A DNA stretch of 64,000 nt. Source: Patescibacteria group bacterium (GTDB taxonomy: Bacteria > Patescibacteriota > Minisyncoccia > HO2-45-28). Both the position numbers and the translations under genes were made by a program. Shown here in pieces: positions 9,099 to 23,496 of the stretch. The stretch spans positions 647-64,646 of the forward strand of contig JBBTTU010000004.1 of NCBI GenBank assembly GCA_038064075.1, read 5' to 3'. A model generated the notes under the pieces. The model was not told where the DNA came from, searched no databases, and saw only the letters and a list, made by a program, of their open reading frames with translations. Each line of letters begins with the position of its first letter. Positions within the stretch are counted from its first letter, which is position 1.

Positions 9099-9117
9099 AG
9101 ACATTAGAAAACTTAAC

Positions 9118-10587: not shown

Positions 10588-10620
10588 AATAAAATTTGCA
10601 GACATAATTTAAATAATCCC

Positions 10621-12564
10621 ATGGCCATTCAAAAAGAAAGAGTTTATTTTGCCAGAACAAATTTTAGAGGTCAGAATAAAATTTTCGGCATTAAATTGCC
10701 GGATCGCCGGCAGCATATGTATGTTGTCGGGAAAACCGGCACCGGCAAAACCAACCTGATCAAAAATATAGCCATTCAGGATATAAACTCCGGCCGGGGC
10801 CTCTGCGTTGTTGATCCTCACGGCGAGCTAGTTGAAGAACTTTTGGAAAAAATTCCGAAAGAACGCTCCAAAGACGTGATTTATTTCAATCCGGCCGACT
10901 CGGAACATCCTCTGGGTTTCAACGTCTTGGAAGTTCCCGATAAAAAATACAAGCATTTGATTGCGCAGGGCCTGATCGGAATTTTTACCAAAATCTGGGC
11001 CAATGTCTGGTCGGCCCGGATGGAGTATATTTTAAATAACTGCATTTTGGCCTTGATTGAAACGCCGGGCACCACGCTCTTGGGCATTCAGCGCATTTTG
11101 ACCGACAAAGATTACCGCCAGCGGATTTTAGCCAATGTAACCGACCCGGTCGTGCGCGCTTTTTGGATGAATGAATATGAAGTCTGGCAGGATCGCTTCC
11201 GCAACGAAGCCATTGTTCCGATTCAAAATAAAGTCGGCCAGTTCGTCGCGACATCTTTGATCCGAAACATTGTCGGCCAGGCCAAATCAAGCTTTGAAGT
11301 TTTTGAGTTGATGAACGAGGGCAAAATTCTTCTGGTCAATATTTCCAAAGGCCGGATTGGCGAGGAAAATTCAATGCTTTTGGGAGCCATGCTTATCACT
11401 AAAATTCAGCTGGCGGCCATGGAACGGGTCCGCATCCCCGAAAATGAAAGGCGCGATTTTTATCTTTATGTTGACGAGTTCCAGAATTTCGCCACCGAAT
11501 CGTTTGCTTCCATTCTTTCCGAAGCCAGAAAATACCGGCTTAATCTGATTATTTCGCATCAATACACCGGCCAGCTGATTAGCCAGACGACAACGACGAT
11601 CCGCGACGCCGTTTTCGGCAATGTCGGCACGATGATTTTTTTCAGAGTCGGAGCGACCGACGCCGAGTTTCTGGAAAAAGAAATCACGCCCGAATTCGTC
11701 ATAGACGACCTCGTCAATCTGCCCAATTACAATATTTATCTCAAATTAATGGTTGACGGCATATCAACCCGGCCTTTTTCGGCCGTTACCATACCGCCTT
11801 TGGCCACGACCGCCGATATGGCCGATCCGAAAATTATCGTTGATAATTCCCGAAAGCAATATGCCCGATCGGCAAACAAGGTTGAAGGAGATATCAAGCG
11901 CTGGAGTTCTTCTTTGCCGGGAACGACTGAAGCCGAAGAAGAATTTTTCACCGAAGGCGGATCCGCCTATGGCGGAAAAGTTAAAACCGGCGACAAATTT
12001 GAAAGTCCGTGCTGGATTTGCAAAAAAACCGCGTCAGTTCCTTTCAAGCCCGACGGCCAAAGGCCGGTCTATTGCTCGGAGTGTTTGAAAAAGATTGAAG
12101 CCGGCCAACTGCGGCCTTTGCGTCCGCTGCCGACGGCCGGAAAAGAGCGCGAAGAATTCGGCGGAGAACTCGGTGAATTGGGCATTGAGTTTAATTTGCC
12201 TCAAAATAAGGTAAAGACATTCTCAAAGCCGGGCTTCAAAGCTCCGCATCCGGAATTTTCGCCGAAAGCCCGGCCCGCGCCCGGAAAAATTATGCCGAAT
12301 ATCAGAGAGGGCGAATTGGTGGTCAAGGATGTTAAGCCAAAACGCGCGCTTTCTTTGCAAGATTTGAAGCCGCGGGCAGAAAAATCAAAACCAAAAGAAT
12401 CTAATTTGGATGAATTGCGCCGGGTTCTGAAAGAATCGCTTGCCAAAGAAGAAAAACCGATGGCCGAAACTCAAAAAAATCAGAATGCGGCGCCGTCTTC
12501 ACAAAAGGAGCCGTCTTCCAAATCAGGCGTGCTTAAACCCGGCGAGTCAATAAAATTTGAATAA
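10621..12564 (+). CDS. Paralogous soluble VirD4/TraG-type P-loop ATPase with a C-terminal CxxC...CxxC zinc ribbon and a long K/P/E-rich disordered tail.
   Basis: 'HMYVVGKTGTGKTNLI', 'GLCVVDPHGELV', 'DFYLYVDEFQNF', 'IISHQYTGQLI'. The core is collinear with the 9118 protein. Zinc ribbon 'CWICKKTASVPFKPDGQRPVYCSEC'. The tail is rich in K, P and E. Confidence 0.7.
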   Translation: MAIQKERVYFARTNFRGQNKIFGIKLPDRRQHMYVVGKTGTGKTNLIKNIAIQDINSGRGLCVVDPHGELVEELLEKIPKERSKDVIYFNPADSEHPLGFNVLEVPDKKYKHLIAQGLIGIFTKIWANVWSARMEYILNNCILALIETPGTTLLGIQRILTDKDYRQRILANVTDPVVRAFWMNEYEVWQDRFRNEAIVPIQNKVGQFVATSLIRNIVGQAKSSFEVFELMNEGKILLVNISKGRIGEENSMLLGAMLITKIQLAAMERVRIPENERRDFYLYVDEFQNFATESFASILSEARKYRLNLIISHQYTGQLISQTTTTIRDAVFGNVGTMIFFRVGATDAEFLEKEITPEFVIDDLVNLPNYNIYLKLMVDGISTRPFSAVTIPPLATTADMADPKIIVDNSRKQYARSANKVEGDIKRWSSSLPGTTEAEEEFFTEGGSAYGGKVKTGDKFESPCWICKKTASVPFKPDGQRPVYCSECLKKIEAGQLRPLRPLPTAGKEREEFGGELGELGIEFNLPQNKVKTFSKPGFKAPHPEFSPKARPAPGKIMPNIREGELVVKDVKPKRALSLQDLKPRAEKSKPKESNLDELRRVLKESLAKEEKPMAETQKNQNAAPSSQKEPSSKSGVLKPGESIKFE

Positions 12565-13706
12565 AGCTCAAATGTTTTTTGGAGTTGTTTTTCTTTTGAA
12601 AATTCTTTAAGCACTTTTTGGCGCAAGTTTTGAGCAAGTATCCGGCCTAACTCCGGATCTTTTTTTAATCTTAAAACTGCTTCAGTCAGTTTTTGGGGAT
12701 CGGCCGGCGGTATTAAAAGTCCGGTTTTTCCGTCTTCTATGATTTCAGGGATTCCGCCGACAGAGCTGGCAATAACCGGGATTCCGGCCAGACCCGCTTC
12801 AAGCACCGCGTAGGGCAGTCCTTCTTTCAGCGACGGAAACACGAATACGTCAAAAGCTTTGAGATAAGCCGCCGCCGGAAAAAGATCTCTTACTAAAATC
12901 ACGTGTCGGCCGGTTTTTTCATTTTCAATTTGTCGGCGAGTTTTTTGCCAGCCGCTGCCCCAAGCCGCGATTACGGTTTTTATTTTTTCGTCTTTTTTAG
13001 CCAAGACGCCGGCGGCCGGTACCAGATATTCGTAGCCTTTATTTTTGACAAATTCGCCGACGGTGCCGACAATAAAATCATCGGTTTCAAACCGCGCATT
13101 CGGCATTTTTTTCCGGATTTCGTTTTTAGCAAGAAACAAGATTTCGTTTTCGGAGATTCCGTTATGGATGGTCAATAATTTTTCAGGCCGGGCCAGTCCG
13201 GTTTGGACGGCAATTTGGCGGTCAAAGTTTGAAACGCAGATGACTTGATCGTAAAACCATAAAGTTATTTTGGAAAGAATCCGGATGAAGAAAATTTGCC
13301 AGCGCGGCCTATCTTCCAGAAAACTCCAGCCGTGGACCGTAAATATTGTCCGCAGTTTTTTTCGGGAAAGCATTTTATAAATAAACGCGGCCGGGCCGGC
13401 AATGCCGGCGGCTTGGGGGCTTGAAGAATGAAGAATATCGGGACGGAAAGAAAAAAGAATTTTAAGCGTTTTTAAAAAAACCGCAAATGCCCCCAAAGGC
13501 CCCATTTCGCGCTTAAGTCCGCCAAGCGAAATAAAAGGTATTGACGCTTCTTGCAGGCGGCCGGCCAGAGGTCCGCGGCCGCCACCGGCCACCGCGGCGT
13601 CGTATCCCTTCTTTTGGGCGCAAGCGGCGAGGTCATAGACATGTTTTCCGGCTCCTCCCCAGACCGACTTGGTGATAAGGTATAAAATTTTAGCGCGATT
13701 GACCAT
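12480..13706 (-). CDS. Glycosyltransferase family 4 (GT-B, Glycos_transf_1).
   Basis: 'FVFPSLKEGLPYAVLEAGLAGIPVIASSVGGIPEIIEDGKTGLL' is the GT4 EX7E region. Its 3' end overlaps the convergent 10621 gene by 85 nt. Confidence 0.75.
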   Translation of the reverse strand: MVNRAKILYLITKSVWGGAGKHVYDLAACAQKKGYDAAVAGGGRGPLAGRLQEASIPFISLGGLKREMGPLGAFAVFLKTLKILFSFRPDILHSSSPQAAGIAGPAAFIYKMLSRKKLRTIFTVHGWSFLEDRPRWQIFFIRILSKITLWFYDQVICVSNFDRQIAVQTGLARPEKLLTIHNGISENEILFLAKNEIRKKMPNARFETDDFIVGTVGEFVKNKGYEYLVPAAGVLAKKDEKIKTVIAAWGSGWQKTRRQIENEKTGRHVILVRDLFPAAAYLKAFDVFVFPSLKEGLPYAVLEAGLAGIPVIASSVGGIPEIIEDGKTGLLIPPADPQKLTEAVLRLKKDPELGRILAQNLRQKVLKEFSKEKQLQKTFELYSNFIDSPGLSTPDLEDGSFCEDGAAF

Positions 13707-13753
13707 AAGTAAATTTTATTACATAATAGTGAGAAATTGCTTAAATTTCAACA

Positions 13754-14927
13754 AATGAATGAACTTGCCCCAAAGCCAAAGATTTTTATTTTTTCAACGG
13801 CCTATTTGCCGATGATCGGCGGCGCGGAGCTGGCAATTAAAGAAATAACTGATCGCCTCGCCGATGATTTTGATTTTGTTTTGCTTACGACGAGACTAAA
13901 GCGTTCGCTCCCCAAATGCGAGCGAATTGGCAGAGTCCAGATCAGGCGTTTTGGCTCGGGGCTGCTGCCGTATTTGGACAAAGCGCTTTCTCCGTTTTTG
14001 GCCGCTTATTTTGTTTATAAATTTATGAAAAAACATCCGGTGCATCTTTTTTGGAGCATGATGGTGACCTTTACCAGCGGCGCGCCGTTTATCTTGAAGT
14101 TTTTGGGGCTGGATAAAAATGTGCCGATACTCCTTAGCTTGCAGGAAGGCGATACTGAAGATCATCTGCGATCAGCTAATTTGGGTTTGACTGGCCTGGC
14201 TTGGAAATTGGCCGCGCCGCGCGCGACTAAAGTCCAGACAATCAGTTTTTATCTGAAAAAACTTGCGGTTAAATTCGGCGTGAATCTCGCGGAAACCGAA
14301 GTTGTTCCCAACGGGGTTGATCTTGAAAATTTTTCGCGCCGTTTGCAGCCGGATCGCGTCAAAGAACTTCGCATCCGTCTTGGCCTTCCGACCGGAAAGC
14401 CGATTATAATTACTGCTTCGCGCCTTGTCCGCAAAAACGGGATTGATATTTTGATTAAGTCCCTGGCCGATATTCCGGAAGCCCGTCTTTTAATCGCCGG
14501 CGCCGGCCCTCAAGAAAAAGAACTGCGGAATCTTGCCCGAAAATTAAAAAAAGAAAAAATGATCCATTGGTTGGGAAGCGTCAATCACAAGAAGCTGGCC
14601 GAATTTTTGGCAATTTCCCATGTTTTTGCCAGACCCTCGCGCTCCGAAGGGCTGGGTTCGGCTTTTTTGGAAGCAATGGCTTCGGGTTTGGCGGTGGTGG
14701 CAACCAATGTCGGCGGCATTCCGGATTTTTTAATCCATCAAAAAACCGGCCTTTTTTGCAAGACGGAAGATCCGGAGGATCTTGCTTTTCAGATCAGGCT
14801 TTTACTCTATAATCGCGAGCTTCGCGAAAACATCGCTTCGGCCGGTCAAAAATTGGTTTTTCAAAATTATTCCTGGGATAAAGTCGCGGGATCAATGCGC
14901 CAGATTTTTCTCCGCCTTTTAAAATGA
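13754..14927 (+). CDS. Glycosyltransferase family 4.
   Basis: 'ARPSRSEGLGSAFLEAMASGLAVVATNVGGIPDFLIHQKTGLF'. The ATG at 13754 is preferred over the TTG at 13737. Confidence 0.75.
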
Positions 14928-15017
14928 ACCCCGTTAGAAGTTCAACCGAGGTTAGTATTATCACTTTTTTAGAAAGCGAATTCGTTCTCGCAATGTTATT
15001 ACCGACAATTATTTTAT

Positions 15018-16163
15018 ATGAAAACTTCTAACGGGATGAAAATTTTAATTGCCACCCCTCTTTTTCCGCCGGATATAGGAGGACCGGCTACTTACAGCAA
15101 GGCGCTTTCGGAAGAATTGTCCAAGCGCGGGATAAGCGTTGATGTTCTGTCTTTCGGGGTTGTTCGCGGATTGCCCAAAATTATTCGCCATTTGGCCTAT
15201 TTCTGGAAAGTTTTTTGGAAGAGCCGGAAAGCCGATTTAATTTTCTCCCAGGATCCGGCATCAGTCGGTTTTCCTGCTTGCCTTGCCGCGCTGCTTTTAA
15301 GGAAGCGTTTCGCGCTGAAAATTGTGGGAGATTACGCTTGGGAGCAGGGAATGAATCGTTTTGGAGTCAAGGATTTGCTTGATAATTTTTTGGAAAAAAA
15401 ATACGGCCGGCCGGTTGAATTTTTGCGCCGGATTGAAAAATTTGTCGCAATCAGGGCCGATATTATTATTGTTCCCAGCCGCTATTTAAAAAGCGTTGTT
15501 GAAAAATGGGGCGTTGATTCTAAAAAAATAAATGTAATTTATAACGCGGTTCATATTCCGGAAATTTTTCAGAGTAAAGAGGAAATAAGAAAAAATCTCG
15601 GACTTTCCGGAAAAATTTTGGTGAGTATCGGCCGGCTTGTTCCGTGGAAAGGATTTGGAATGTTGATTGAACTTATGCCTGAAATCTCAAAAAAATATCC
15701 GGCCGCTAAACTGCTGATCATCGGTTCGGGGCCCGAAGAGGATGAGCTAAAAGCTATAAGCTATAAGCCTTCGTCCCGAACTCAGGCCGAGGGGTTAAAA
15801 GCTGGCGTAAAATTTTTAGGCGGTTTATCTCATGAACTGGTTTTGAAATATTTGAAAGCCGCCGACATTTTTTTGCTTAATACCGGCTATGAGGGTTTTT
15901 CGCACCAAATTTTGGAAGCCATGGCTTCGGGCGCGCCGGTTATAAGCACGCCGGCAGGAGGCAACAGAGAAATTCTGGAAGACCGCAAAAATACGTTGGT
16001 CGCCGCATATAATGACAGGAACGTTTGGCTCCGAGCCATTTTAGAACTTTTGAGCGATCAGAATCTGGCCCAAAATTTATCCAAAAACGCCCGCCAAGGT
16101 GTTTTAAAATTCGCCGGTCAAAATATGATTGAAGAAACAATTAAAATTTTGCAGTCGTTATGA
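15018..16163 (+). CDS. Glycosyltransferase family 4.
   Basis: 'NTGYEGFSHQILEAMASGAPVISTPAGGNREIL' GT4 motif. N-terminal 'ILIATPLFPPDIGGPATY'. Confidence 0.75.
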   Translation: MKTSNGMKILIATPLFPPDIGGPATYSKALSEELSKRGISVDVLSFGVVRGLPKIIRHLAYFWKVFWKSRKADLIFSQDPASVGFPACLAALLLRKRFALKIVGDYAWEQGMNRFGVKDLLDNFLEKKYGRPVEFLRRIEKFVAIRADIIIVPSRYLKSVVEKWGVDSKKINVIYNAVHIPEIFQSKEEIRKNLGLSGKILVSIGRLVPWKGFGMLIELMPEISKKYPAAKLLIIGSGPEEDELKAISYKPSSRTQAEGLKAGVKFLGGLSHELVLKYLKAADIFLLNTGYEGFSHQILEAMASGAPVISTPAGGNREILEDRKNTLVAAYNDRNVWLRAILELLSDQNLAQNLSKNARQGVLKFAGQNMIEETIKILQSL

Positions 16164-17269
16164 AAATCCTAATGTTTTCGGCCGATCCGATGATTTTAGA
16201 TGCCCGGTCAGCAGCGGCCAAAAGAATGATTGAGTATGGAAAAAGAATTGAAAAACTTGATATTTTGGTTTTAACTTCTCATTTGGACGCCGGACTTAAA
16301 AATGAGATTGAATTGGCAGAAAATGCCAGAATATATGCTTTAACCGGCAAATTTTCGCGTTTTTTTAAGGCATTTTTTAAGGCTCGGAGCTTGCTGAAGC
16401 GGATCAAATACGATTTACTCGTGGCGCAGGATGTTGAGCATGCTTTTCTTTGCTGGCTTTTGTCACTTCGTTTCAAAACGGCGTGGCAGATGCAGATTCA
16501 CGCCGATATTTTCAGTCTGTATTTCGCGAGGCACTCATTTTTTAACAAAATGCGAATATGGTTTGCTAAATTTTTAATCCCGCGGGCTTCTTGCATACGT
16601 GTTGTATCGCAACGTATAAAAAAATCAATTCTAAAAGCTCAGAGTTTACAGCTAAAAGCTAATATCGAAGTTTTGCCTATTTTAGCTTCGCCAATAAACA
16701 CAGATGCTCAGCCAAAGCGTTTTCCTGAATTTGATAAAAATATTTTAATGGTTTCGCGTCTGACCAGTGAAAAAAATATCGGGCTTGCGATTGACGCTAT
16801 GGCCGAAGTTGTAAAAAAGCATCCTAAAACCGGTTTGGTTATTGTCGGCGACGGACCGGAGTTTAAAAATATCAAAAATCAAATATCAAATCTCAAAATT
16901 GATGAAAATGTGCGGTTGGAAGGTTGGCGGGAAAATATTGCTTCATACTACAAAGGCTCGGATATTTTTATTTTGACGAGTTGGTACGAGGGTTGGGGCA
17001 TGAGCGCGGTTGAGGCGATGCGTTATGGCGCGGCTGTCGTTATGACCGATGTCGGTTTGGCTGGAGAGTTGATTGAAGATGGAAAAAGCGGTTTGATCGT
17101 GCCGGTGGGCGATAAAAACGCGCTTGCCGCCGCAATATTAAGGCTTTTGGAAAATGATAGTTTCCGCCGAGATTTGATTGAAGAAGCGGCAAAAAAAACC
17201 GGAGAATTGTTTTCGGTTGAAGAATATTACCAAAAAATTATTGATAGTTGGAGCAGGTGCGTCGGCTAA
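16160..17269 (+). CDS. Glycosyltransferase family 4.
   Basis: 'LTSWYEGWGMSAVEAMRYGAAVVMTDVGLAGELIEDGKSGLIVP'. The start overlaps the upstream stop by 4 nt. Confidence 0.75.
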   Translation: MKILMFSADPMILDARSAAAKRMIEYGKRIEKLDILVLTSHLDAGLKNEIELAENARIYALTGKFSRFFKAFFKARSLLKRIKYDLLVAQDVEHAFLCWLLSLRFKTAWQMQIHADIFSLYFARHSFFNKMRIWFAKFLIPRASCIRVVSQRIKKSILKAQSLQLKANIEVLPILASPINTDAQPKRFPEFDKNILMVSRLTSEKNIGLAIDAMAEVVKKHPKTGLVIVGDGPEFKNIKNQISNLKIDENVRLEGWRENIASYYKGSDIFILTSWYEGWGMSAVEAMRYGAAVVMTDVGLAGELIEDGKSGLIVPVGDKNALAAAILRLLENDSFRRDLIEEAAKKTGELFSVEEYYQKIIDSWSRCVG

Positions 17270-17317
17270 AACCCTTAATTTAAGCTATTTTTGTCAGCAG
17301 AGTTTACAATTATATTC

Positions 17318-18343
17318 ATGAATTTATTAATTATTACCCAAAAAGTTGATAGAAATGACCCGATTCTGGGGTTTTTTCACCGCTGGCTTGAAGAGTTTGC
17401 CAAAAACGCCGAAAAATTGACTGTAATTTGCCTTGAAAAAGGCGAATATAACTTACCTGAAAATGTTAATATTTTATCGCTTGGCAAAGAAAACGGAAAA
17501 TCGCGCATAAAATATTTGCGGCGATTTTATAAATATATTTGGAGAGAAAGAAACAATTACAACGCTGTTTTTGCGCACATGAATCCGGAATACATTATTT
17601 TAGGCGGATTGGTTTGGAAAATCATGGGCAAAAAAATCGCGTTTTGGTATGTGCATAAAGCCGTGAATCTGAAATTGAAAATTGCCGAAAAACTGGCTGA
17701 CAAAATTTTCACGGCATCGCGCGAAAGCTTCAGATTGCCCTCAAAAAAAGTTCAAATAACAGGACACGGAATAGATATAGATAAATTTTCAATTTTCAAT
17801 TTTCAATTTTCAAAAAAAATTCGTATTGTTACGGCCGGCAGGATCGCGCCGGTTAAAAATCTGGATATTTTGATTGAAGCCGCTGAAATTTTAAAGAATA
17901 AAGGAGTTGATTTTCAAATTAAAATCGCGGGAAGCCCGATTATTGAGGCCGATAAAATTTATTTCGAAAAATTAAAATCAGAGATTCGACAAAAAAATCT
18001 GGAAAACTTTGTTTTTTTTGCCGGCCCGATTCCATATTCCCAAATTCAGGATTTTTACCGTTCCGGCGACATTTTCGTCAATTTGAGCGAAACCGGAAGC
18101 GTTGACAAAGCGGTGCTTGAAGCCATGGCCTGCGGCCTTTCAATCGCGACTTCCAATCAGGCTTTTAAAAATATTCTGCCTCATAAATATTTTTTGGAAG
18201 AAAAAAACCCCGAAGCGCTTGCGCAAAAACTGAGTGAGTTGTCAGCCGAAAAACGTCCTGATTTTAAGCTGCGTGAAATTGCGCTGAAAGAACACAGCTT
18301 GCAAAGTTTGATTCCAAAGATAATCAAAGAACTTGAAAGCTGA
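17318..18343 (+). CDS. Glycosyltransferase family 4. It contains an internal heptanucleotide simple-sequence repeat.
   Basis: 'LSETGSVDKAVLEAMACGLSIATSN' GT4 C-terminal domain. The ATG at 17318 is preferred over the TTG at 17291. Confidence 0.65.
   Translation: MNLLIITQKVDRNDPILGFFHRWLEEFAKNAEKLTVICLEKGEYNLPENVNILSLGKENGKSRIKYLRRFYKYIWRERNNYNAVFAHMNPEYIILGGLVWKIMGKKIAFWYVHKAVNLKLKIAEKLADKIFTASRESFRLPSKKVQITGHGIDIDKFSIFNFQFSKKIRIVTAGRIAPVKNLDILIEAAEILKNKGVDFQIKIAGSPIIEADKIYFEKLKSEIRQKNLENFVFFAGPIPYSQIQDFYRSGDIFVNLSETGSVDKAVLEAMACGLSIATSNQAFKNILPHKYFLEEKNPEALAQKLSELSAEKRPDFKLREIALKEHSLQSLIPKIIKELES
17784..17819 (+). repeat. Simple-sequence repeat: (AATTTTC)x4 immediately followed by an A8 homopolymer, inside the GT4 coding sequence.
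   Basis: Direct reading: aattttc at 17784-17790, 17791-17797, 17798-17804 and 17805-17811, then aaaaaaaa at 17812-17819. It encodes 'FSIFNFQFSKK'. The 7-bp unit is not a multiple of 3. Confidence 0.9.
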
Positions 18344-18355
18344 TATAATAAATAT

Positions 18356-19690
18356 ATGTTTTCAGGTTTTATCAAAAGAGAACGAGCGATTTTAACTGTT
18401 ATTTTTTTGGTTTTTATCGCAAGCGCGGCATACGCTTTTTATTATCGCATCAGGCCGTCGGTTGACGCCGGAGTTTATGACCAAACAGCGGTTAATATTG
18501 CTCAAGGCTACGGCTTCAGGTTTGATCGGTCCTTGCCGATAGCCGAAGACTCAATAATTACTTTTCAGGGCCCGATTTATCAATACTTTCTGGCCGGCAT
18601 TTATCTGATTTTTGGACATCATTATGAGGCGGTCTGGCTGATTCAAGCGTTATTGAGGGCTTTTACGGCTTTAATTTTATATTTGACAGCCGTTAATATT
18701 TTTGGCCCGGAGGGCAGGCGGATCGGCTGGATTTCAGCCGCTATTTTCGGTTTTCATCCCGATCTGATTGAAATCGGAGCGATGCTTATGACCGAAACAT
18801 TTTTTATATTTTTGTCGGTGCTCGCGGTTTATGTATTCGTTATTTTATATAAAAATCGGTCTTATCTAAATTCTTTTTTTTTAGGACTTTTTTTTGGTCT
18901 GGCCGTTCTCGGCCGTTCAAGCGTCGGAATTTTTCTTTTGCCTTTCGGATTTTATTTTATTTCCCGCAAAGAGTACGCGAAATTTGTTCTATTTTTAGTG
19001 ACGCTTATTTTAGTAATGACTCCGTGGACTATAAGAAACTACAAAGTTTACGGCGAGTTTATTCCGACTATGGCCAACTTCGGCTATAATTTTTGGGTCG
19101 GCAATCACGAGGGCGGGGACGGCGAAGGCGGAAATACGCCGGAACTGGCCGCGGCCCAGAAAGAATACGGCTATATCGGAGCCAATTATTATGCCGCCAG
19201 TCAATTTAAAAAATTCGTCGCGGATCATCCTCTTCAATATATAAAATTTACAATTTCACGAACTGTAAAATATTTCAGTTTCATGCGCCCGATGGGATTT
19301 TGGTTTTATCAGCGGGGGTTGGGACAATTTATTTTTGTCGCCGGTTCCGTATTAGGTTCATTGATTTTGTTTTGGACCGGTTTTGCCGGAATTTTTATCT
19401 GGTTTAAAAAAGAAAAAGAAAACAGACTCCTCGGTTATTTTTTCAGCTTCGTTTTTTTCAGCGTTTTATCGCTGGTTCTGATTTTGTATGAAACCCGTTA
19501 TCGTTTGCCGGTTTATCCGTTTTCGGCTTTATTTTCCGGTTTGGCTTTAAGCCGCCTATATTTTGCGCCAAAAGAATATTTCCGATATTTCGTTGCCGCC
19601 GGAATTGCTATTTTATTCCTTGCCGCCGCCAGTGTTGCCATGGATTATGAAAAAATATTTCAGAAATTCAAACAAATTTTTGAAACTTAA
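18356..19690 (+). CDS. Polytopic GT-C glycosyltransferase, PMT_2/GT39/ArnT-like (polyprenyl-phosphate-sugar dependent).
   Basis: At least 10 TM helices. The loop-1 motif 'DAGVYDQTAVNIAQGYGF' (D..xY...A.N...G.G) is shared with the 22192, 24230 and 46168 proteins. Confidence 0.6.
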   Translation: MFSGFIKRERAILTVIFLVFIASAAYAFYYRIRPSVDAGVYDQTAVNIAQGYGFRFDRSLPIAEDSIITFQGPIYQYFLAGIYLIFGHHYEAVWLIQALLRAFTALILYLTAVNIFGPEGRRIGWISAAIFGFHPDLIEIGAMLMTETFFIFLSVLAVYVFVILYKNRSYLNSFFLGLFFGLAVLGRSSVGIFLLPFGFYFISRKEYAKFVLFLVTLILVMTPWTIRNYKVYGEFIPTMANFGYNFWVGNHEGGDGEGGNTPELAAAQKEYGYIGANYYAASQFKKFVADHPLQYIKFTISRTVKYFSFMRPMGFWFYQRGLGQFIFVAGSVLGSLILFWTGFAGIFIWFKKEKENRLLGYFFSFVFFSVLSLVLILYETRYRLPVYPFSALFSGLALSRLYFAPKEYFRYFVAAGIAILFLAAASVAMDYEKIFQKFKQIFET

Positions 19691-20883
19691 TGATGCCCAA
19701 AAAAATTTTAATCATCACTCCCCGTTTTCCTCTGCCGGACACCGGCGCTTGCGAGAAAGACCGTTTTGAAGGCATAAAACAGTTCAAAAGATTGGGGTTT
19801 GACGTCAGGGTTGTCTCAAAAGTTTTTTCTTTTCAGGACAAGAAAGACATAGAAAAATTTTCGGCCGACTTCGGAATTCCGGTAAAACTTTTGGAATATG
19901 AAAATAAATTCAGCCTCAGAAAATTTTTTAATCCTTTTTATTGGGATGGCGCGGCCCATGAATATTCCGGTAAATCAACTCAAGAAGCCGTTGAAGCCAT
20001 TTTAGACGAGTGGCATCCGGATCTGGTTTGGTTTGACTACACTTATCTTTGGCCGCTTTACGGTCTGGCCGGACGAAGAAAAATACCGATTATCACCCGC
20101 TCGATCAATTTTGAACCGGATCATTTTTTACAGGAAGACGGATATTCATTGTTGAACTTAATTAAATTTTTACCTAAATTGGCAAGCGAAATAATAACCA
20201 TTTATAAAAGCGATTTTTTATTTGCGATCACGCCTAACGAAGAAAAAATTTACAGGCGTCTTGGCGCAAAAAATATTAAAACACTGCCGCTTCGCGGCTT
20301 ATCATTATGTTTTAATTCCATTCACGGCGTAAATAATAAAGATATTCTTAACGTGTTTTTTATGGGTTCAACTTATAATGTCCACCATAACCGGGCGGCG
20401 CTTGAATTTATTTTAAAAAAAATAGCGCCGGAAGCGCGCAAAAAATATCCGTTAAAATTTAAGTTTTATATTTTAGGCAGCAAGGTGCCTGAAGATTTGA
20501 CAAAATTTTTCGGCGAGGACATTATTTATGTCGGCCACAAAAATCATGAAGCTCTTGATGAATTTTTGGCTGGGATGGATATAGCGATCGTGCCGTCTCT
20601 TTTCGGCGCCGGCATGCAGCAGAAAATTTTTGAGCCGCTTTGCCGCGGAATTCCGGCCGTCGCGTCTTTGAGGGGTCTCGCCGGCTATCCGTTTGAACAT
20701 CGCAAGCATCTGCTCGCGGCCGAAACTCTTGGTGAATTTCCGGATTTATTATCGGAGCTTCGCGACGCGGGCCTGCGGCGGAGTCTTTCTGAAAATTCGG
20801 TCGCTCTGTCAAAGAAATTATTTTCCAGCCAGGCTTCGGATTCCGGTATATTAAAAGCCCTAAATCAAGTTTGGCGGCATTGA
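19690..20883 (+). CDS. Glycosyltransferase, GT-B fold (GT4/GT1-like).
   Basis: N-terminal 'KILIITPRFPLPDTGACEKDRF'. C-terminal 'DIAIVPSLFGAGMQQKIFEPLCRGIPAVAS' resembles the GT-B nucleotide-sugar binding region. Confidence 0.45.
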   Translation: MMPKKILIITPRFPLPDTGACEKDRFEGIKQFKRLGFDVRVVSKVFSFQDKKDIEKFSADFGIPVKLLEYENKFSLRKFFNPFYWDGAAHEYSGKSTQEAVEAILDEWHPDLVWFDYTYLWPLYGLAGRRKIPIITRSINFEPDHFLQEDGYSLLNLIKFLPKLASEIITIYKSDFLFAITPNEEKIYRRLGAKNIKTLPLRGLSLCFNSIHGVNNKDILNVFFMGSTYNVHHNRAALEFILKKIAPEARKKYPLKFKFYILGSKVPEDLTKFFGEDIIYVGHKNHEALDEFLAGMDIAIVPSLFGAGMQQKIFEPLCRGIPAVASLRGLAGYPFEHRKHLLAAETLGEFPDLLSELRDAGLRRSLSENSVALSKKLFSSQASDSGILKALNQVWRH

Positions 20884-20923
20884 TTAATAAAAAAAAATAT
20901 TTTAAGATGAGCAGATAATTCAA

Positions 20924-22135
20924 ATGGCCTGCTTTATTTGCAATCAGGATAATTTATTTAATTTTTTGGATCTCGGCCTTCAACCGCCGAGCAACGCTTT
21001 TATTCGCAAGGAAGATTTGTCAAAATCCGAAGAAATTTATTCTTTAAAGCCTTGTTTTTGCGAGTTTTGCGGTCTGGTGCAGTTAAATTATATCGTTGAT
21101 CCCAGAAAAATATTCATAGATTACGTCTACAACACTTCCACCAACAACAGCCTTAAAGAGAATTTTCAAAATTTGGTCGGATTGATTGTCGGGCGTTTCA
21201 ATTTAAAAAAAGGGGATTTTGCCGTTGATATCGGTTCAAACGACGGAACGCTTTTGTCTTATTATTTGCCGCGCGGCATTAAGATTTTGGGGGTTGATCC
21301 GTCTAACGTCACCAAACTGGCTCTGGAAAAAAACATACCGACGATTGTTGATTTTTTTTCCGAGCGAGTCGCCGCAGACATCATTAAAAAATACGGCCAA
21401 GCCAAAGCGGTGACGGCCACCAATGTTTTTGCCCATGTGGACAAGCTGTATGATTTTATGGCCGGCATTACCAAGCTGTTGGCCAAAGACGGCGTTTTTA
21501 TTTCCGAATCGCAGTATCTTTTGGATACGATCGCCAAACTGCACTACGATTTGATTTATCACGAGCATCTTCGTTATTACTCTTTAAAACCGCTTGCGAT
21601 TTTATTTAATAAGTTCGGCATGGAGATTTTTGACGCCGAGCGCATTTCTTCCCACGGCGGCTCAATCAGGGTTTACGCCGCCAAATCCGGAGAGTATCCG
21701 GTTTCCGAATCCGTTGCCGCTTTGATGAAAAATGAAGAATCAAGCGGTCTTTATCGCAAGGAAACTTTTACGGATTTTGCGGATAAAGTCAGCCGAAATA
21801 AATTTGAATTTCTGGAAATTATCAAAGATATAAAAGGGCGCGGCCAGCGTATAGTCGGCATCGGGGCGCCGGCCAAAGGCAATACTTTGCTGAATTATTA
21901 CGGCATGAATCCGGACATTATTGATTATCTTGTTGAAAAAAGCGAGCTTAAAATAGGAACGTTTGCGCCTGGCACCCGTATACCGGTTGTAGCAGAGTCA
22001 AAATTGTTCAAAGATCAGCCGGAATACGCTTTGCTGCTGTCTTGGAATTTGGCAGACGAGCTTATTCCCAAAATAAGAAACAAGGGGTACAAAGGCAAAT
22101 TTATCGTGCCTATGCCCAAGCCGACGGTTTTGTAA
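20924..22135 (+). CDS. SAM-dependent sugar C-methyltransferase with an N-terminal zinc ribbon (Methyltransf_13 + Methyltransf_14 architecture, TylCIII/NovU-like).
   Basis: N-terminal 'CFICNQDNL...CEFCGLVQLNY' Cys4 ribbon. 'VDIGSNDGTLL' SAM motif I. C-terminal 'IVGIGAPAKGNTLLNY' C-methyltransferase domain. Paralog of the gene at 52920-54164. Confidence 0.65.
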   Translation: MACFICNQDNLFNFLDLGLQPPSNAFIRKEDLSKSEEIYSLKPCFCEFCGLVQLNYIVDPRKIFIDYVYNTSTNNSLKENFQNLVGLIVGRFNLKKGDFAVDIGSNDGTLLSYYLPRGIKILGVDPSNVTKLALEKNIPTIVDFFSERVAADIIKKYGQAKAVTATNVFAHVDKLYDFMAGITKLLAKDGVFISESQYLLDTIAKLHYDLIYHEHLRYYSLKPLAILFNKFGMEIFDAERISSHGGSIRVYAAKSGEYPVSESVAALMKNEESSGLYRKETFTDFADKVSRNKFEFLEIIKDIKGRGQRIVGIGAPAKGNTLLNYYGMNPDIIDYLVEKSELKIGTFAPGTRIPVVAESKLFKDQPEYALLLSWNLADELIPKIRNKGYKGKFIVPMPKPTVL

Positions 22136-22191
22136 TTTTTACAGCGCGCTAAATTTTGAAATTCTGACAATTTCTTGCTACTATTTCAGCA

Positions 22192-23496
22192 ATGAACAGC
22201 TTCCGGCCGCGCATTGGGGAATGCCGGCATTATTTTCTTTTTTTAATCATCGGCCTTGTCGTCGTTGCCAGGATCGGCGCGGCGGCGGTTTTGTACGCGA
22301 AAAATGTTTTTCCTTCGCCGATTCAGGATCCGCTTGAATACCGCAATTTGGCGATGAATATCTTGGCCGGAAACGGATTCAGCATTGCTCAAAATCCTCC
22401 CTATCCGCCGGACCTTTTTCGCACGCCGCTTTATCCTTTATTTCTTGCCGCGACATACGGCATTGATTCGGCCGGCTACCTCGCGATATTATTGCAGCAG
22501 TTGATGATTATTGCGTCGGCATGGCTGCTTTTTAAAATTTTGCGTCGCTGGAACGATTCTTCCGGGAAAATTGCGCTGATATTTTCTTTGTTTCTGCTTG
22601 TCGATCCCCGAATTTGGTTTTGGTCGCTTGAAACCATGACTGAAGCTCTTTTTATTTTTTTGACGGCGGCGATGCTGTTTTTATTGCTTTATCCGGAAAA
22701 TTTTAACACGGCGCATGTTGCCGGCGCGGCAGTGTTTTTTGGTCTGGCCGTTTTAACCCGTCCTTCCGGATTATTGTGGGCTCCGGGACTCGTTCTTTTT
22801 TTTCTGTTTTGCAAAAAACCGGTTAAATCCAGATTATTTATGTTTTTCATTTTTATGGCGGTTGCCGGTATCGTTGTTTCGCCGTGGTTATGGCGGAATT
22901 ATAAACTGGTCGGCAGGCCGATTTTGTCTTCAATGCAGACGGTTAATTATATTCAGGCGTTTGGAATCGGCCGGGATGATCCGTCGTGGCGATGCTCGGA
23001 TTCAATTGTTGATTCAAAAGGCCGCGAAGGGTGCGTATTTTACGGCTGGACGGCCGCCGGATTTTCCGATGCCGAAAAAACAGCCCGGAATTTGCGCGCG
23101 AACACGCCTGTTTTTTCTTTAATCAAAAAAAACATGACAGGCGCTTATCATTTTTGGAAATCCAACGATTATCCCGACGCTTTGAGCATTTTGCGCAGCG
23201 CCGCGCTTGGCGCCGGAAAACCCATATCCCGGACATGGCAGATATTGGCCGAAGCGTCCCATAAAACCTACGCCGCTTTTTTGAATTTTATGCTGATTTT
23301 AGGGGTTGCCGGACTTGTTTTTTTATATAAAAAGAGGGAATTGGCGGCGGCAGGTTTGTTGGGAGGCATTATTTTTTCCAGCGTTTTTATAAATTTCGGA
23401 TTGGCTTCCGGACGCCTTCATTTGATTCTTTTGCCGCCGCTTTTCTATCTTGCCGGACTGGGGACTGTTTTTATCAAACAAATTTATCAACAATGA
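22192..23496 (+). CDS. Polytopic GT-C glycosyltransferase, PMT_2/GT39-like.
   Basis: 'DPLEYRNLAMNILAGNGF' and 'FRTPLYPLFLAATYG' motifs shared with the paralogs. Multiple TM helices. Confidence 0.6.
   Translation: MNSFRPRIGECRHYFLFLIIGLVVVARIGAAAVLYAKNVFPSPIQDPLEYRNLAMNILAGNGFSIAQNPPYPPDLFRTPLYPLFLAATYGIDSAGYLAILLQQLMIIASAWLLFKILRRWNDSSGKIALIFSLFLLVDPRIWFWSLETMTEALFIFLTAAMLFLLLYPENFNTAHVAGAAVFFGLAVLTRPSGLLWAPGLVLFFLFCKKPVKSRLFMFFIFMAVAGIVVSPWLWRNYKLVGRPILSSMQTVNYIQAFGIGRDDPSWRCSDSIVDSKGREGCVFYGWTAAGFSDAEKTARNLRANTPVFSLIKKNMTGAYHFWKSNDYPDALSILRSAALGAGKPISRTWQILAEASHKTYAAFLNFMLILGVAGLVFLYKKRELAAAGLLGGIIFSSVFINFGLASGRLHLILLPPLFYLAGLGTVFIKQIYQQ

What the first reader, a model, noticed from the sequence alone, without database searches (positions are those of the whole stretch)
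17784..17819. Heptanucleotide (AATTTTC)x4 + A8 simple-sequence repeat inside a glycosyltransferase gene: a candidate phase-variation switch
There are four perfect tandem copies of a 7-bp unit followed by an 8-A homopolymer within the GT4 coding sequence 17318-18343, encoding FSIFNFQFSKK. The unit length is not a multiple of three. Gain or loss of one unit by slipped-strand mispairing would therefore frameshift and truncate the enzyme. The A8 tract is an additional slippage hot spot. Established knowledge: SSR-driven ON/OFF switching of surface-glycan glycosyltransferases is well known in host-associated bacteria such as Haemophilus, Neisseria and Campylobacter. It has not, to my knowledge, been characterised in CPR-like organisms. 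Elsewhere in the window only very short A/T runs occur, so this repeat stands out.
Basis: partly seen in the sequence, partly recalled or inferred. Interest (0 to 1): 0.55.

Follow-up and report, generated by a model that had tools for sequence, protein, structure and literature searches.

The report
Heptamer repeat switch candidate in glycosyltransferase
A real, slippage-prone 7-base repeat sits in the hinge of a sugar-adding enzyme of an ultra-small groundwater bacterium; similar repeats occur almost only in this enzyme family across related bacteria, so they may act as on/off switches for the cell's sugar coat, but switching has not been seen directly.

Summary
The repeat is real: (AATTTTC)x4 at 17784-17811 plus A8 at 17812-17819, inside a GT4 glycosyltransferase gene of a Hainich groundwater Patescibacteria MAG. 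It is the longest perfect tandem repeat in the window. The A8 is ordinary, one of about 30 A/T runs of 8 or more, and is not conserved in orthologues.

The tract encodes the coil linker between the two Rossmann domains. A change of one unit truncates the enzyme before its C-terminal domain.

The main new result is comparative. In 160 orthologous loci, heptamers are the only over-represented repeat class. 53 of 55 arrays lie in GT4 genes (P~1e-14), at three loop positions, nearly always with about 4 copies and in frame. The same perfect (AATTTTC)4 recurs at this site in proteins only 50-55% identical. Close relatives show concerted evolution of arrays.

Evidence for switching is indirect: three k=31 assemblies break in the tract, one orthologue (L177, ~3x coverage) is frameshifted across it, and a sister array shows a length-variation signature. 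Against it, every assembled copy of this strain is n=4/A8, no slipped-allele product exists in public data, and 4 units is below accepted phase-variation cut-offs.

Verdict: a real, maintained slippage tract and a plausible low-rate contingency switch, still unproven.

The parts
17784..17811 (+). (AATTTTC)x4 perfect heptanucleotide array. With the next two A's it is 4.3 copies. Read in all three frames as F-S-I-F-N-F-Q-F-S.
   Evidence: The same perfect array is present at the same site in L109, L112 and L177, and in degenerate form in L011 and L037.
17812..17819 (+). A8 homopolymer following the array (codons for K166-K167 plus the first base of I168). An ordinary tract for this genome and not conserved in orthologues. 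It could compensate a one-unit slip: n=3 with A9, or n=5 with A7, are both in frame.
   Evidence: Orthologues have AAATAAA, AAATAAAAA or AAACAAAAA. Logan contigs cross other A8, T8 and T9 runs without a break.
17318..18343 (+). GT4-family (GT-B fold, retaining-type) glycosyltransferase gene, 341 aa. An alternative TTG start at 17291 gives 350 aa.
   Evidence: Pfam PF00534 and PF13692. AF2 model pLDDT 93.1, pTM 0.89. Foldseek best matches are MshA, BshA and other GT4 structures, TM 0.77-0.80. All NCBIfam hits are below curated cut-offs, so the enzyme is a generic GT4.
17762..17788 (+). Codons for the conserved G149-H-G-I-D-x-x-K-F157 motif at the end of the N domain. The invariant F157 codon (17786-17788) is the anchor or 'seed' from which linker arrays start.
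   Evidence: Invariant columns in alignment A1. 20 of 21 linker arrays in orthologues start within -8 to +10 nt of the F157 codon.
17819..17836 (+). Codons for the first beta-strand of the C-terminal Rossmann domain (I168-A173, IRIVTA). Everything from here on is lost after a frameshift in the tract.
   Evidence: DSSP on the model gives E168-173 and coil for 148-167; the lowest pLDDT blocks (82-88) are at residues 151-170. Truncation products computed.
16867..16897 (+). Imperfect heptamer array (AAATATC x4.4, 87% match) in the adjacent GT4 gene 16160-17269. It lies in the C-domain loop that carries arrays in many orthologues.
   Evidence: The homologous loop in L013 carries (AATCTCA)x4.4 and x4.6.
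15745..15768 (+). Short heptamer array (AGCTATA x3.4, 94% match) in the GT4 gene 15018-16163, in the same C-domain loop.
12480..23496 (.). Surface-glycan-type gene cluster: six GT4 genes, two PMT_2/GT-C membrane glycosyltransferases and a methyltransferase. This is the context in which the heptamer arrays occur.
   Evidence: Pfam and gene calls.

Best explanation
The tract is a genuine slipped-strand-mispairing site, and it belongs to a previously undescribed, lineage-wide class. In Parcubacteria-type Patescibacteria, tandem heptanucleotide arrays of about four units occur almost only in GT4 glycosyltransferase genes, in three surface loops, one of which is the inter-domain linker. Proposed mechanism: during replication the nascent strand re-pairs one unit out of register. 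Gaining or losing 7 nt shifts the frame, translation stops 9-27 codons later, and the product (179-184 aa) lacks the whole C-terminal domain, so one sugar-transfer step in the surface-glycan pathway is lost. A second slip, or a compensating 1-nt change in the adjoining A8, restores the frame. With only 4 units the rate is probably low, so the population is overwhelmingly ON with a small OFF minority. This would be a low-rate contingency (bet-hedging) switch rather than a fast Neisseria-type one. The choice of 7-nt units probably reflects the heptamer-biased slippage already noted in bacteria. The fixed n=4 reflects the frame (in-frame states are 1, 4, 7) together with linker length (n=4 gives the family-typical 28 residues). 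Shown: the existence and non-randomness of the tract, its position in the fold, the consequences of slips, GT4 specificity, nucleotide-level maintenance, concerted evolution, and one out-of-frame allele. Inferred: that slips occur at ecologically relevant rates in this strain, that the OFF state changes the glycan, and that this is adaptive.
For: (1) The tract is real and non-random.
(2) Slips truncate the protein: n=3 gives 182 aa, n=5 181 aa, A7 184 aa, A9 179 aa. n=3+A9 and n=5+A7 are in frame.
(3) Residues 157-167 are coil between strands 145-147 and 168-173, the lowest-confidence part of a pLDDT-93 GT-B model.
(4) Heptamers are the only enriched repeat class in 160 orthologous loci. Perfect period-7 arrays number 9 at 3x and 14 at 4x, against 0 in Markov controls, while periods 4, 5, 8, 9 and 10 are at control level.
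(5) 53 of 55 arrays are in GT4 ORFs, which make up 48.6% of the DNA; none is in 392 kb of other coding sequence; P~1e-14. In the first 80 loci, arrays were 17-fold denser in the linker than in flanking DNA, Poisson P=1.7e-6.
(6) The identical perfect (AATTTTC)4 occurs at this site in L109 and L112, whose proteins are 50-55% identical to the window's and to each other, with every synonymous position unchanged while the flanks diverge. Against L011 the tract is 90-92% identical versus 71% gene-wide. (AGATTCA)4 is likewise conserved between L133 and L139, which are 70% identical.
(7) Concerted evolution: L101 and L102 (92% identical N domains) differ by the same two substitutions in each unit.
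(8) L177 carries a perfect (AATTTTC)4 and is out of frame exactly across it; n=3 or n=6 restores a 353 or 360 aa ORF.
(9) All three Logan k=31 assemblies break inside the tract (ends at 17808, 17808, 17811; restarts at 17790, 17790). The same contigs cross A8/T8/T9 runs and the imperfect arrays.
(10) A sister (GTGGAAA)5 array is crossed in two runs but shows the exact repeat-exit fork signature in a third run of the same strain.
(11) Precedent: the heptanucleotide tract in Neisseria pglE (PMC5953494, PMC7157529).
Against: No length variant of this tract has been seen directly. Four assembled contigs all carry n=4/A8. None of 8 predicted slipped-allele products is in the protein collection, and the 90% cluster holds no in-frame n=1 or n=7 variant. 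Four units and A8 are below the PhasomeIt cut-offs (at least 5 units; at least 10 for A/T), and even tracts at those cut-offs may mutate at less than 1e-5 (PMC6321876). Characterised heptanucleotide switches have 5-38 units (PMC2651432, PMC5953494). About 50 sister arrays in coding DNA are all ON, and all 160 orthologues are in frame across the linker, although selecting the best tblastn matches biases against OFF alleles of the target gene. The copy number is the same (4) in six lineages. The Logan contig ends fit no simple 3/4, 4/5 or A8/A9 fork model and could reflect low coverage or error. L177 has ~3x coverage, and a 1-nt deletion next to the tract would also restore its frame.
Confidence: 0.5

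Rival explanations
1. A tolerated by-product of heptamer-biased replication slippage, not a switch. Heptamer arrays arise anywhere, are purged from constrained sequence, and survive only where about 10 extra or replaced residues do no harm (GT4 loops, intergenic DNA). At n=4 the tract is effectively stable, and the gene is simply always ON.
For: Heptameric SSRs are over-represented in many bacterial genomes, with a proposed polymerase-footprint cause (PMC4692102, citing Mrazek 2007). Every observed allele of this strain is n=4. About 50 of 51 coding arrays are ON. Many arrays are degenerate: 39 of 53 are imperfect, as expected for birth and decay. Array density in non-coding DNA (2 in ~28 kb) is comparable to that in GT4 genes. 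The tract is below the field's cut-offs (PMC6321876). The linker varies in length and sequence.
Against: It does not explain zero arrays in 392 kb of other coding DNA, which also has permissive loops. It does not explain the absence of in-frame 3-, 6- or 9-nt arrays, which should be even better tolerated. It does not explain perfect nucleotide identity, including all synonymous sites, of the array across 50%-identical orthologues, or the concerted change of all units between close relatives. Reaching n=4 from n=1 requires passing through two frameshifted states, which itself implies tolerated or selected OFF phases.
Confidence: 0.35
2. The arrays are short identical joints for homologous recombination. 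Thirty identical bases at the inter-domain linker would let N (acceptor) and C (donor) domains be swapped between GT4 paralogues or strains, diversifying specificity.
For: The same unit occurs in different GT4 paralogues that are 23-34% identical, and in phylogenetically patchy sets of orthologues. Some orthologue pairs show discordant identity between the N and C halves, for example L092 against L101 and L105.
Against: The four AATTTTC-bearing genes show no N/C discordance (for example window-L109 0.55 and 0.55). Arrays also occur within domains, in the N-domain and C-domain loops. The hypothesis does not explain why units are always 7 nt or why copy number is always about 4.
Confidence: 0.05
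3. The A8 run is the active element, through replication or transcriptional slippage or -1 ribosomal frameshifting on A_AAA_AAA, and the heptamer array is incidental.
For: In the gene's frame the run reads TCA AAA AAA, a slippery pattern. The first k-mer of the right-hand Logan contigs, C(AATTTTC)3A8T, is the fork signature expected for A8 versus A9 or longer.
Against: The A8 is one of about 30 A/T runs of 8 or more in the window. It is not conserved: orthologues with the same heptamer array have AAATAAA or AAACAAAAA. It is below the cut-off of 10 (PMC6321876). The same Logan contigs cross other A8, T8 and T9 runs without a break.
Confidence: 0.04
4. The peptide FSIFNFQFS itself is selected, for example as an amphipathic strand in the hinge, and the DNA periodicity is a side effect.
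For: The peptide alternates hydrophobic and polar residues and recurs in six lineages.
Against: Protein-level selection cannot hold all synonymous third positions fixed across 50%-identical orthologues. Other orthologues use quite different peptides, or no array, at the same site. The region has the lowest model confidence and is coil.
Confidence: 0.04

Closest known systems
Neisseria pglE: pilin/protein O-glycosylation glycosyltransferase, phase-varied by an in-gene heptanucleotide tract (CAAACAC, 5-34 units; PMC5953494 table; PMC7157529)
   Same: A heptanucleotide tandem repeat inside the coding sequence of a glycosyltransferase of a surface-glycan pathway. Unit changes shift the frame. The gene is one of several repeat-bearing glycosyltransferase genes acting in one pathway.
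   Different: pglE tracts are long and vary widely between isolates, and switching has been shown experimentally. Here n is 4 in every copy seen, below accepted cut-offs, and no switching has been observed. The organism is an uncultivated groundwater CPR bacterium rather than a host-adapted pathogen. Here several paralogues carry heptamers, whereas the other pgl genes use poly-G. Homology to PglE was not tested.
Haemophilus influenzae heptanucleotide SSRs: TGAAAGA x13-38 upstream of hmw1A/hmw2A; in-ORF (AATTTTG)14 in hmw1a of strain PittAA with a frameshift; AACAACC x1-13 (PMC2651432, PMC8262952)
   Same: 7-nt units as mediators of phase variation. One example is an in-ORF, AT-rich unit (AATTTTG) almost identical to the unit here, associated with a frameshift.
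   Different: Mostly promoter-located, with graded expression. Copy numbers are much higher and vary between strains. The genes encode adhesins or receptors, not GT4 enzymes.
Classical contingency loci in LOS/CPS glycosyltransferases (poly-G in Campylobacter; tetranucleotides in Haemophilus lic2A, lgtC and others; PMC6321876, PMC8437040, PMC2651432)
   Same: Several glycosyltransferase genes of one surface-glycan cluster each carry a frame-shifting SSR, which would give combinatorial glycan variants.
   Different: Different unit sizes. The tracts exceed experimentally supported lengths. Many alleles are OFF in any given genome, whereas here about 50 of 51 are ON.
[quoted passage not shown]
   Same: A specific excess of 7-nt tandem units over all other unit lengths, with slippage tied to the polymerase proposed as the cause.
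   Different: Those arrays are intergenic, share one consensus per genome and are often long. Here the arrays are inside ORFs, restricted to one enzyme family, use at least 35 different units, and are capped at about 4 copies.

Membership tests
SSR-mediated phase-variable (contingency) locus | Perfect tandem repeat whose unit is not a multiple of 3, located inside the ORF (or in the promoter) | tested here: met
   (AATTTTC)x4 at 17784-17811 inside ORF 17318-18343.
SSR-mediated phase-variable (contingency) locus | Repeat number at or above lengths shown to switch (PhasomeIt: at least 5 units for repeats of 4 nt or longer; poly-A/T at least 10) | tested here: not met
   4 units and A8, against the cut-offs in PMC6321876. 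Known heptanucleotide switches have 5-38 units (PMC5953494, PMC2651432).
SSR-mediated phase-variable (contingency) locus | Tract-length polymorphism within or between populations of one strain | tested here: inconclusive
   All 4 assembled contigs are n=4/A8, and predicted variant proteins are absent. But 3 of 3 Logan k=31 assemblies break inside the tract, and a sister array shows a length-variation fork signature.
SSR-mediated phase-variable (contingency) locus | Both ON and OFF alleles attributable to the tract among homologues | tested here: inconclusive
   One OFF allele, L177, is restored by n=3 or n=6, but it has ~3x coverage and a 1-nt indel is an alternative. About 50 other coding arrays are ON.
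SSR-mediated phase-variable (contingency) locus | Reversible switching at high frequency (roughly above 1e-5 per generation) | not testable with these tools
   Needs cultures, a reporter, or deep read data.
SSR-mediated phase-variable (contingency) locus | Association with surface or host-interaction genes, and maintenance of repeat purity | tested here: met
   53 of 55 arrays lie in GT4 genes. Perfect arrays are conserved across 50-70% identical orthologues.
GT4 / GT-B fold glycosyltransferase | Glycos_transf_1 domain above Pfam's gathering score | tested here: met
   PF00534 at 80.8 bits against a cut-off of 26.4.
GT4 / GT-B fold glycosyltransferase | Two Rossmann-like domains joined by a linker; structural match to solved GT4 enzymes | tested here: met
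   AF2 pLDDT 93.1. Foldseek matches MshA, BshA and BA1558 with TM 0.77-0.80 and E as low as 7e-16.
GT4 / GT-B fold glycosyltransferase | Assignment to a specific characterised GT4 subfamily or substrate | tested here: not met
   All NCBIfam hits are far below curated cut-offs; the best is EpsE at 80.8 bits against 400.
Neisseria PglE-type heptanucleotide-switched glycosyltransferase | In-ORF heptanucleotide tract whose copy number varies between isolates | tested here: not met
   The tract is present, but n=4 in all six lineages that carry it.
Neisseria PglE-type heptanucleotide-switched glycosyltransferase | Sequence homology to PglE | not tested
   No PglE sequence was compared.
Homopolymer slippage / programmed frameshift site | A long (9-10 or more) or evolutionarily conserved homopolymer or slippery heptamer at the site | tested here: not met
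   The A8 is not conserved in orthologues, is common in the window, and has no stimulatory RNA structure (z = -0.9).
Intergenic heptameric repeat families (STRR, GGGAATC, TAACTGA) | Intergenic location with one genome-wide consensus unit | tested here: not met
   53 of 55 arrays are inside ORFs, with at least 35 distinct units.

The most novel reading that the evidence does not exclude
Parcubacteria-type Patescibacteria have a lineage-wide set of phase-variable genes built only from four-unit heptanucleotide tracts placed in three permissive loops of GT4 glycosyltransferases. Each cell line can reversibly knock out individual steps of surface-glycan synthesis, giving combinatorial glycan variation against phages or for host attachment. 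This would be the first contingency-locus system in the CPR, in free groundwater communities rather than animal hosts. It would work with tracts shorter than those currently accepted as phase-variable.
Probability: 0.4. Interest if true: 0.8.

Novelty: new variant of a known kind. Interest (0 to 1): 0.62.

Why it matters
Patescibacteria make up a large share of bacterial diversity. They live attached to or dependent on other cells, have tiny genomes with few regulators, and almost nothing is known about how they vary their surfaces. If these GT4-specific heptamer tracts do switch, they would be a cheap, regulator-free way for ultra-small cells to diversify surface glycans against phage and host pressure. 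Contingency loci would then extend beyond host-adapted pathogens, and the usual rule of at least 5 units for calling phase-variable genes would need revisiting. Even if they do not switch, the pattern needs explaining: only heptamers, only in GT4 genes, always about 4 copies, and conserved at synonymous sites. It can be tested directly with read data that already exist. It also has a practical consequence, because short-k assemblies of these genomes break at these tracts.

Tried and rejected
1. My first genome contigs pattern scan used a gap of N{5,35}, but the true spacer is 37 nt. Its null result means nothing.
2. The apparent 44-nt insertion in L003 near 20457-20471 is an N10 scaffolding gap, not biology.
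3. L067/L127 looked like a GT4 gene frameshifted at an array, but the array is intergenic, just upstream of a tRNA gene.
4. Domain swapping at the array: there is no discordance between N and C halves among the AATTTTC-bearing genes. Kept only as a minor rival.
5. RNA- or DNA-level roles: the tract is predicted unpaired (z = -0.94), promoter- and terminator-like hits are at shuffle level, and there is no Rfam match at E<=1 in 15000-21000.
6. I tried to derive the Logan contig ends from simple two-allele de Bruijn models (n=3/4, n=4/5, A8/A9). The right-hand start fits an A8 versus A9-or-longer fork, but the left ends (17808, 17811) fit none. I therefore treat the breaks only as a coverage or heterogeneity anomaly.
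7. The truncated N-domain-only proteins P0124 and P0132 on long contigs come from an assembly in which nearly all genes are fragmented, which points to indel-rich long-read contigs. Discarded.
8. P0122 and P0133 diverge at the linker, but they sit on contigs of about 1 kb or less without an evident array. Not used.
9. The exact look-up of the 341-aa product found no encoding contig, because other gene callers used the TTG start. The 350-aa form was found.
10. The recurring 'TCAA' core of many units is not a motif. It follows from having to avoid TAA, TAG and TGA in all three frames in AT-rich units (my inference).
Full report
1. THE OBSERVATION

Window 17784-17811 is four perfect copies of AATTTTC, followed by A8 at 17812-17819. 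TRF reports 17784-17813, period 7, 4.3 copies, 100% match. It is the longest perfect tandem repeat in the 64 kb window.

The tract lies in the ORF 17318-18343 (alternative TTG start at 17291). This ORF carries a Glycos_transf_1 domain at residues 163-314, E=1.1e-22. The tract encodes F157-K167, FSIFNFQFSKK.

The window has 61 A-runs and 83 T-runs of 7 or more bases, and about 30 of them are 8-9 bases long. So the A8 is ordinary for this 43% GC genome.

TRF also shows two imperfect period-7 arrays in the two GT4 genes immediately upstream, at 16867-16897 (x4.4, 87% match) and 15745-15768 (x3.4).

2. SOURCE AND INDEPENDENT COPIES

The identical protein is NCBI MEK7598902.1, 'MAG: glycosyltransferase family 4 protein [Patescibacteria group bacterium]'. 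The next-best homologues are only about 70% identical and are Niyogibacteria-like. The locus comes from Hainich groundwater well H51, for example ENA ERZ1292643.

Four assembled contigs carry the full gene, all with n=4 and A8. Eight predicted slipped-allele products (n=3, n=5, A7, A9, each from both start codons) are absent from a collection of 15 billion proteins. The 90% identity cluster contains only the two start-codon variants, so no in-frame n=1 or n=7 allele has been assembled either.

3. ASSEMBLY BEHAVIOUR AT THE TRACT

Logan (k=31) contigs from three separate runs all stop inside the tract. The left-hand contigs end at 17808, 17808 and 17811. The right-hand contigs start at 17790, 17790 and 17968. 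Five of the 12 contig ends in this ~9 kb region fall within the 36-nt tract.

The same contigs cross the A8, T8 and T9 runs at 15394, 17191, 18012, 18874, 18888 and 20415, and both imperfect heptamer arrays. Neither homopolymers nor low complexity as such cause breaks.

As a control, Logan contigs L171 and L172 run straight through a perfect 35-nt (GTGGAAA)5 array in a neighbouring GT4 gene of a related organism. L174, from another run of the same strain, starts with exactly 30 nt of that array plus the first flanking base. That is the deterministic fork signature of a repeat that is 38 nt or longer, or of mixed length.

For the focal tract, the first k-mer of the right-hand contigs, C(AATTTTC)3A8T, is the signature expected for an A8 versus A9-or-longer fork. 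The left ends fit no simple model. I therefore treat the breaks as a reproducible anomaly consistent with read heterogeneity, not as proof of it.

4. POSITION IN THE PROTEIN AND CONSEQUENCES OF SLIPPAGE

An AlphaFold2 model (pLDDT 93.1, pTM 0.89) is a GT-B fold. It matches MshA, BshA and other GT4 structures with TM 0.77-0.80.

Residues 148-167 are coil between strand 145-147 and the first C-domain strand 168-173. They have the lowest confidence in the model. In a 28-sequence alignment the tract falls between the invariant G-H-G-I-D-x-x-K-F157 motif and the ..I(I/V)TAGRI strand, in a segment that varies in both length and sequence.

Computed alleles:
- n=3 gives 182 aa, n=5 gives 181 aa, A7 gives 184 aa and A9 gives 179 aa. 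All lack the C-terminal domain.
- n=1, n=7, n=3+A9 and n=5+A7 are in frame.

With n=4 the linker is 28 residues on my measure, which is the family mode (27-31). With n=1 it would be 21, shorter than any of about 160 orthologues. This explains why n=4 is the only in-frame state seen.

5. COMPARATIVE SURVEY

I fetched 80 orthologous loci from GTDB species representatives and 80 from metagenome contigs.

All 160 are in frame across the linker. This set is biased against split genes, however, because the best tblastn matches were kept.

Period-7 arrays of 3.5 or more copies lie in the linker of 6 loci in the first set and 15 in the second. In the first set that is 17.5 times denser than in flanking DNA (Poisson P=1.7e-6).

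Twenty of the 21 linker arrays start within -8 to +10 nt of the invariant F157 codon.

Heptamers are the only enriched class of repeat. For perfect arrays, observed versus Markov control:
- Period 7: 172 vs 96 at 2x, 9 vs 0 at 3x, 14 vs 0 at 4x, and none at 5x or more.
- Periods 4, 5, 8, 9 and 10 are at control level throughout.
- Period 6 shows only a mild excess at 2x.

An iterated HMM classified every open frame as GT4 or not. 53 of 55 arrays lie in GT4 ORFs, which make up 48.6% of the DNA. None lies in 392 kb of other coding sequence, and two are intergenic (binomial P~1e-14). The classifier is slightly inclusive, which makes this test conservative.

The arrays cluster at three positions: about 120-139, 160-199 and 260-319 residues before the stop codon. 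These correspond to a C-domain loop, the linker and an N-domain loop. Copy number is 3.7-5.0 in 51 of 53 arrays, and 14 arrays are perfect. All are on the coding strand and in the ON frame. The one apparent exception is intergenic, next to a tRNA gene.

Synteny of three consecutive GT4 genes is conserved in L013. There, five arrays sit in the two upstream genes, including (AATCTCA)n at the loop homologous to the window's own imperfect arrays.

6. MAINTENANCE AND DYNAMICS

The same perfect (AATTTTC)x4.3, in the same frame, occurs in L109 and L112. Their proteins are only 50-55% identical to the window's and to each other. L011 (69% identical) has one substitution, L037 has a degenerate copy, and L091 looks like the unexpanded seed.

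The flanking codons have diverged normally, and the A8 is replaced by AAATAAA or AAACAAAAA. Against L011 the tract region is 90-92% identical while the gene as a whole is 71% identical. Third codon positions are 77-85% identical in the tract region against 53% gene-wide. Neutral descent cannot keep about nine synonymous positions unchanged in three lineages this far apart.

(AGATTCA)4 is likewise perfectly conserved between L133 and L139, which are 70% identical, while the rest of their linker has diverged.

L101 and L102 have N domains 92% identical, yet they carry AAATCTC and AAAAGTC arrays that differ by the same two substitutions in every unit. This is concerted evolution.

Closer relatives of the window gene (P0002, P0003, P0005, about 70% identical) lack the array. 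L177, whose nearest relatives also lack it, has it. So the distribution is patchy. That fits repeated re-expansion from the conserved AAA-TTT-TC seed, long-term maintenance with losses, or both.

Either way, moving between in-frame states means passing through frameshifted intermediates.

7. AN OUT-OF-FRAME ALLELE

A search with only the N-terminal half found P0130. On contig L177 (ENA ERZ26661670, ~3x coverage) it ends six codons after a perfect (AATTTTC)4. The C domain continues in another frame as a separate ORF. n=3 or n=6 restores a full-length ORF of 353 or 360 aa, and n=6 gives the typical linker length. A 1-nt deletion beside the tract would restore the frame too.

This is the pattern expected of an OFF phase, but coverage is low and there is an alternative cause.

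8. ALTERNATIVES CHECKED

- RNA structure: the tract is predicted unpaired (z = -0.94).
- Promoter- and terminator-like hits are at shuffle level.
- No Rfam family matches.
- The four AATTTTC-bearing genes show no N/C domain discordance, which argues against recent domain swapping at the tract.
- The frequent 'TCAA' core of the units follows from avoiding stop codons in all three frames. This is my inference.
- The enzyme is a generic GT4, with NCBIfam hits far below curated cut-offs. It sits in a cluster with five other GT4 genes, two PMT_2/GT-C glycosyltransferases and a methyltransferase.

9. COMPARISON WITH WHAT IS KNOWN

The closest precedent is Neisseria pglE, a glycosyltransferase switched by an in-gene heptanucleotide tract (CAAACAC, 5-34 units; PMC5953494, PMC7157529).

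Haemophilus influenzae also has heptanucleotide tracts of 6-38 units, including an in-ORF (AATTTTG)14 with a frameshift (PMC2651432).

Standard cut-offs for calling phase-variable tracts are at least 5 units for longer repeats and at least 10 for poly-A/T. The authors note that even such tracts may mutate at below 1e-5 (PMC6321876). The tract here falls below both cut-offs.

A general excess of heptameric SSRs in bacteria has been reported, with a proposed cause in the polymerase footprint, mostly for intergenic arrays (PMC4692102, PMC4679880).

Two searches found no paper describing SSR switching in Patescibacteria. The single co-mention uses phase variation only as an analogy.

10. VERDICT

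The repeat is real, made by slippage and maintained at nucleotide level. It belongs to a GT4-specific, heptamer-only class of about four-unit arrays that is widespread in Parcubacteria-type Patescibacteria.

The mechanism most consistent with all the data is a low-rate slipped-strand ON/OFF (contingency-type) switch of individual glycan-synthesis steps (confidence 0.5). The main rival is a tolerated by-product of heptamer-biased slippage with no switching role (0.35).

Direct length polymorphism in this strain has not been shown. Counting unit numbers in existing reads would settle the question.

Noticed in passing
window 16867-16897 and 15745-15768: The two GT4 genes just upstream each carry an imperfect heptamer array (AAATATC x4.4 at 87% match; AGCTATA x3.4) in the same C-domain loop. 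Three consecutive GT4 genes therefore each hold a period-7 array.
   Followed up: partly
L171/L172 900-934; L174 1-30: A perfect (GTGGAAA)x5 array in a neighbouring GT4 gene of a related organism is crossed by two Logan contigs. A third run's contig starts with exactly 30 nt of the array plus one flanking base, the de Bruijn signature of a longer or mixed-length tract. This suggests length variation between samples of one strain.
   Followed up: partly
L177 766-812: An orthologue with a perfect (AATTTTC)x4 is split into N-domain and C-domain ORFs exactly across the array. n=3 or n=6 would restore it. The contig has ~3x coverage.
   Followed up: yes
L101 958-984 vs L102 593-621: Two close relatives (N domains 92% identical) have linker arrays that differ by the same two substitutions in every unit, AAATCTC versus AAAAGTC. 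This is concerted evolution, or allele replacement by recombination; the C domains are only 82% identical.
   Followed up: partly
L013 545-2144: Five heptamer arrays lie within 1.6 kb, all in loops of two consecutive GT4 genes that are syntenic with the window's 15018-17269. The same unit (AATCTCA, peptide KNLKSQISNLKLE) sits at the homologous loop of both paralogues.
   Followed up: partly
L067 (= L127) 1376-1400; L048 333-368: These are the only two heptamer arrays outside GT4 ORFs. One is intergenic, immediately upstream of a tRNA gene. The other lies in a region without a long ORF.
   Followed up: partly
window 9046-12564: Directly upstream of the glycan cluster are two large ATPase genes with TrwB/TraG-type coupling-protein and DUF87 hits (type IV secretion or conjugation-like), preceded by a DUF8128 gene.
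   Followed up: no
window 15703, 15955, 18062, 23495: Single-base differences between independent Hainich assemblies (C/A, C/T, T/G, G/T) indicate strain microdiversity in the population. This could also contribute to contig breaks.
   Followed up: no
window 20652: Two Logan contigs from different runs (L004, L006) both end at 20652, at ...GCCGCGGAATT|CCGG, within the conserved catalytic region of the GT4 gene 19690-20883. The cause was not determined; it may be a variant or a k-mer shared with a related genome.
   Followed up: no
L092 vs L101 and L105 (GT4 orthologues): Identities are mosaic. L092's N domain is closer to L105 (0.64, against 0.38 for the C domain), while its C domain is closer to L101 (0.64, against 0.57 for the N domain). 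This hints at recombination between domains within the family.
   Followed up: partly
L057 2711-2757; L116 2681-2736: Degenerate 7-8-copy arrays of the same unit (TTTTCAA / AATTTTC) occur in the N-domain variable loop of other orthologues. The copy numbers fit the in-frame series 1, 4, 7.
   Followed up: no
L180, L181 (ENA ERZ1286166): Long contigs (82 kb and 387 kb) in which almost every gene is broken into short ORFs. These look like indel-rich long-read assemblies, so truncated genes from this sample should not be read as pseudogenes.
   Followed up: partly
L003 2448-2491: An N10 scaffolding gap with duplicated flanks in a low-coverage ENA scaffold splits the GT4 gene 19690-20883 into two called genes. 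This is an assembly artefact.
   Followed up: yes
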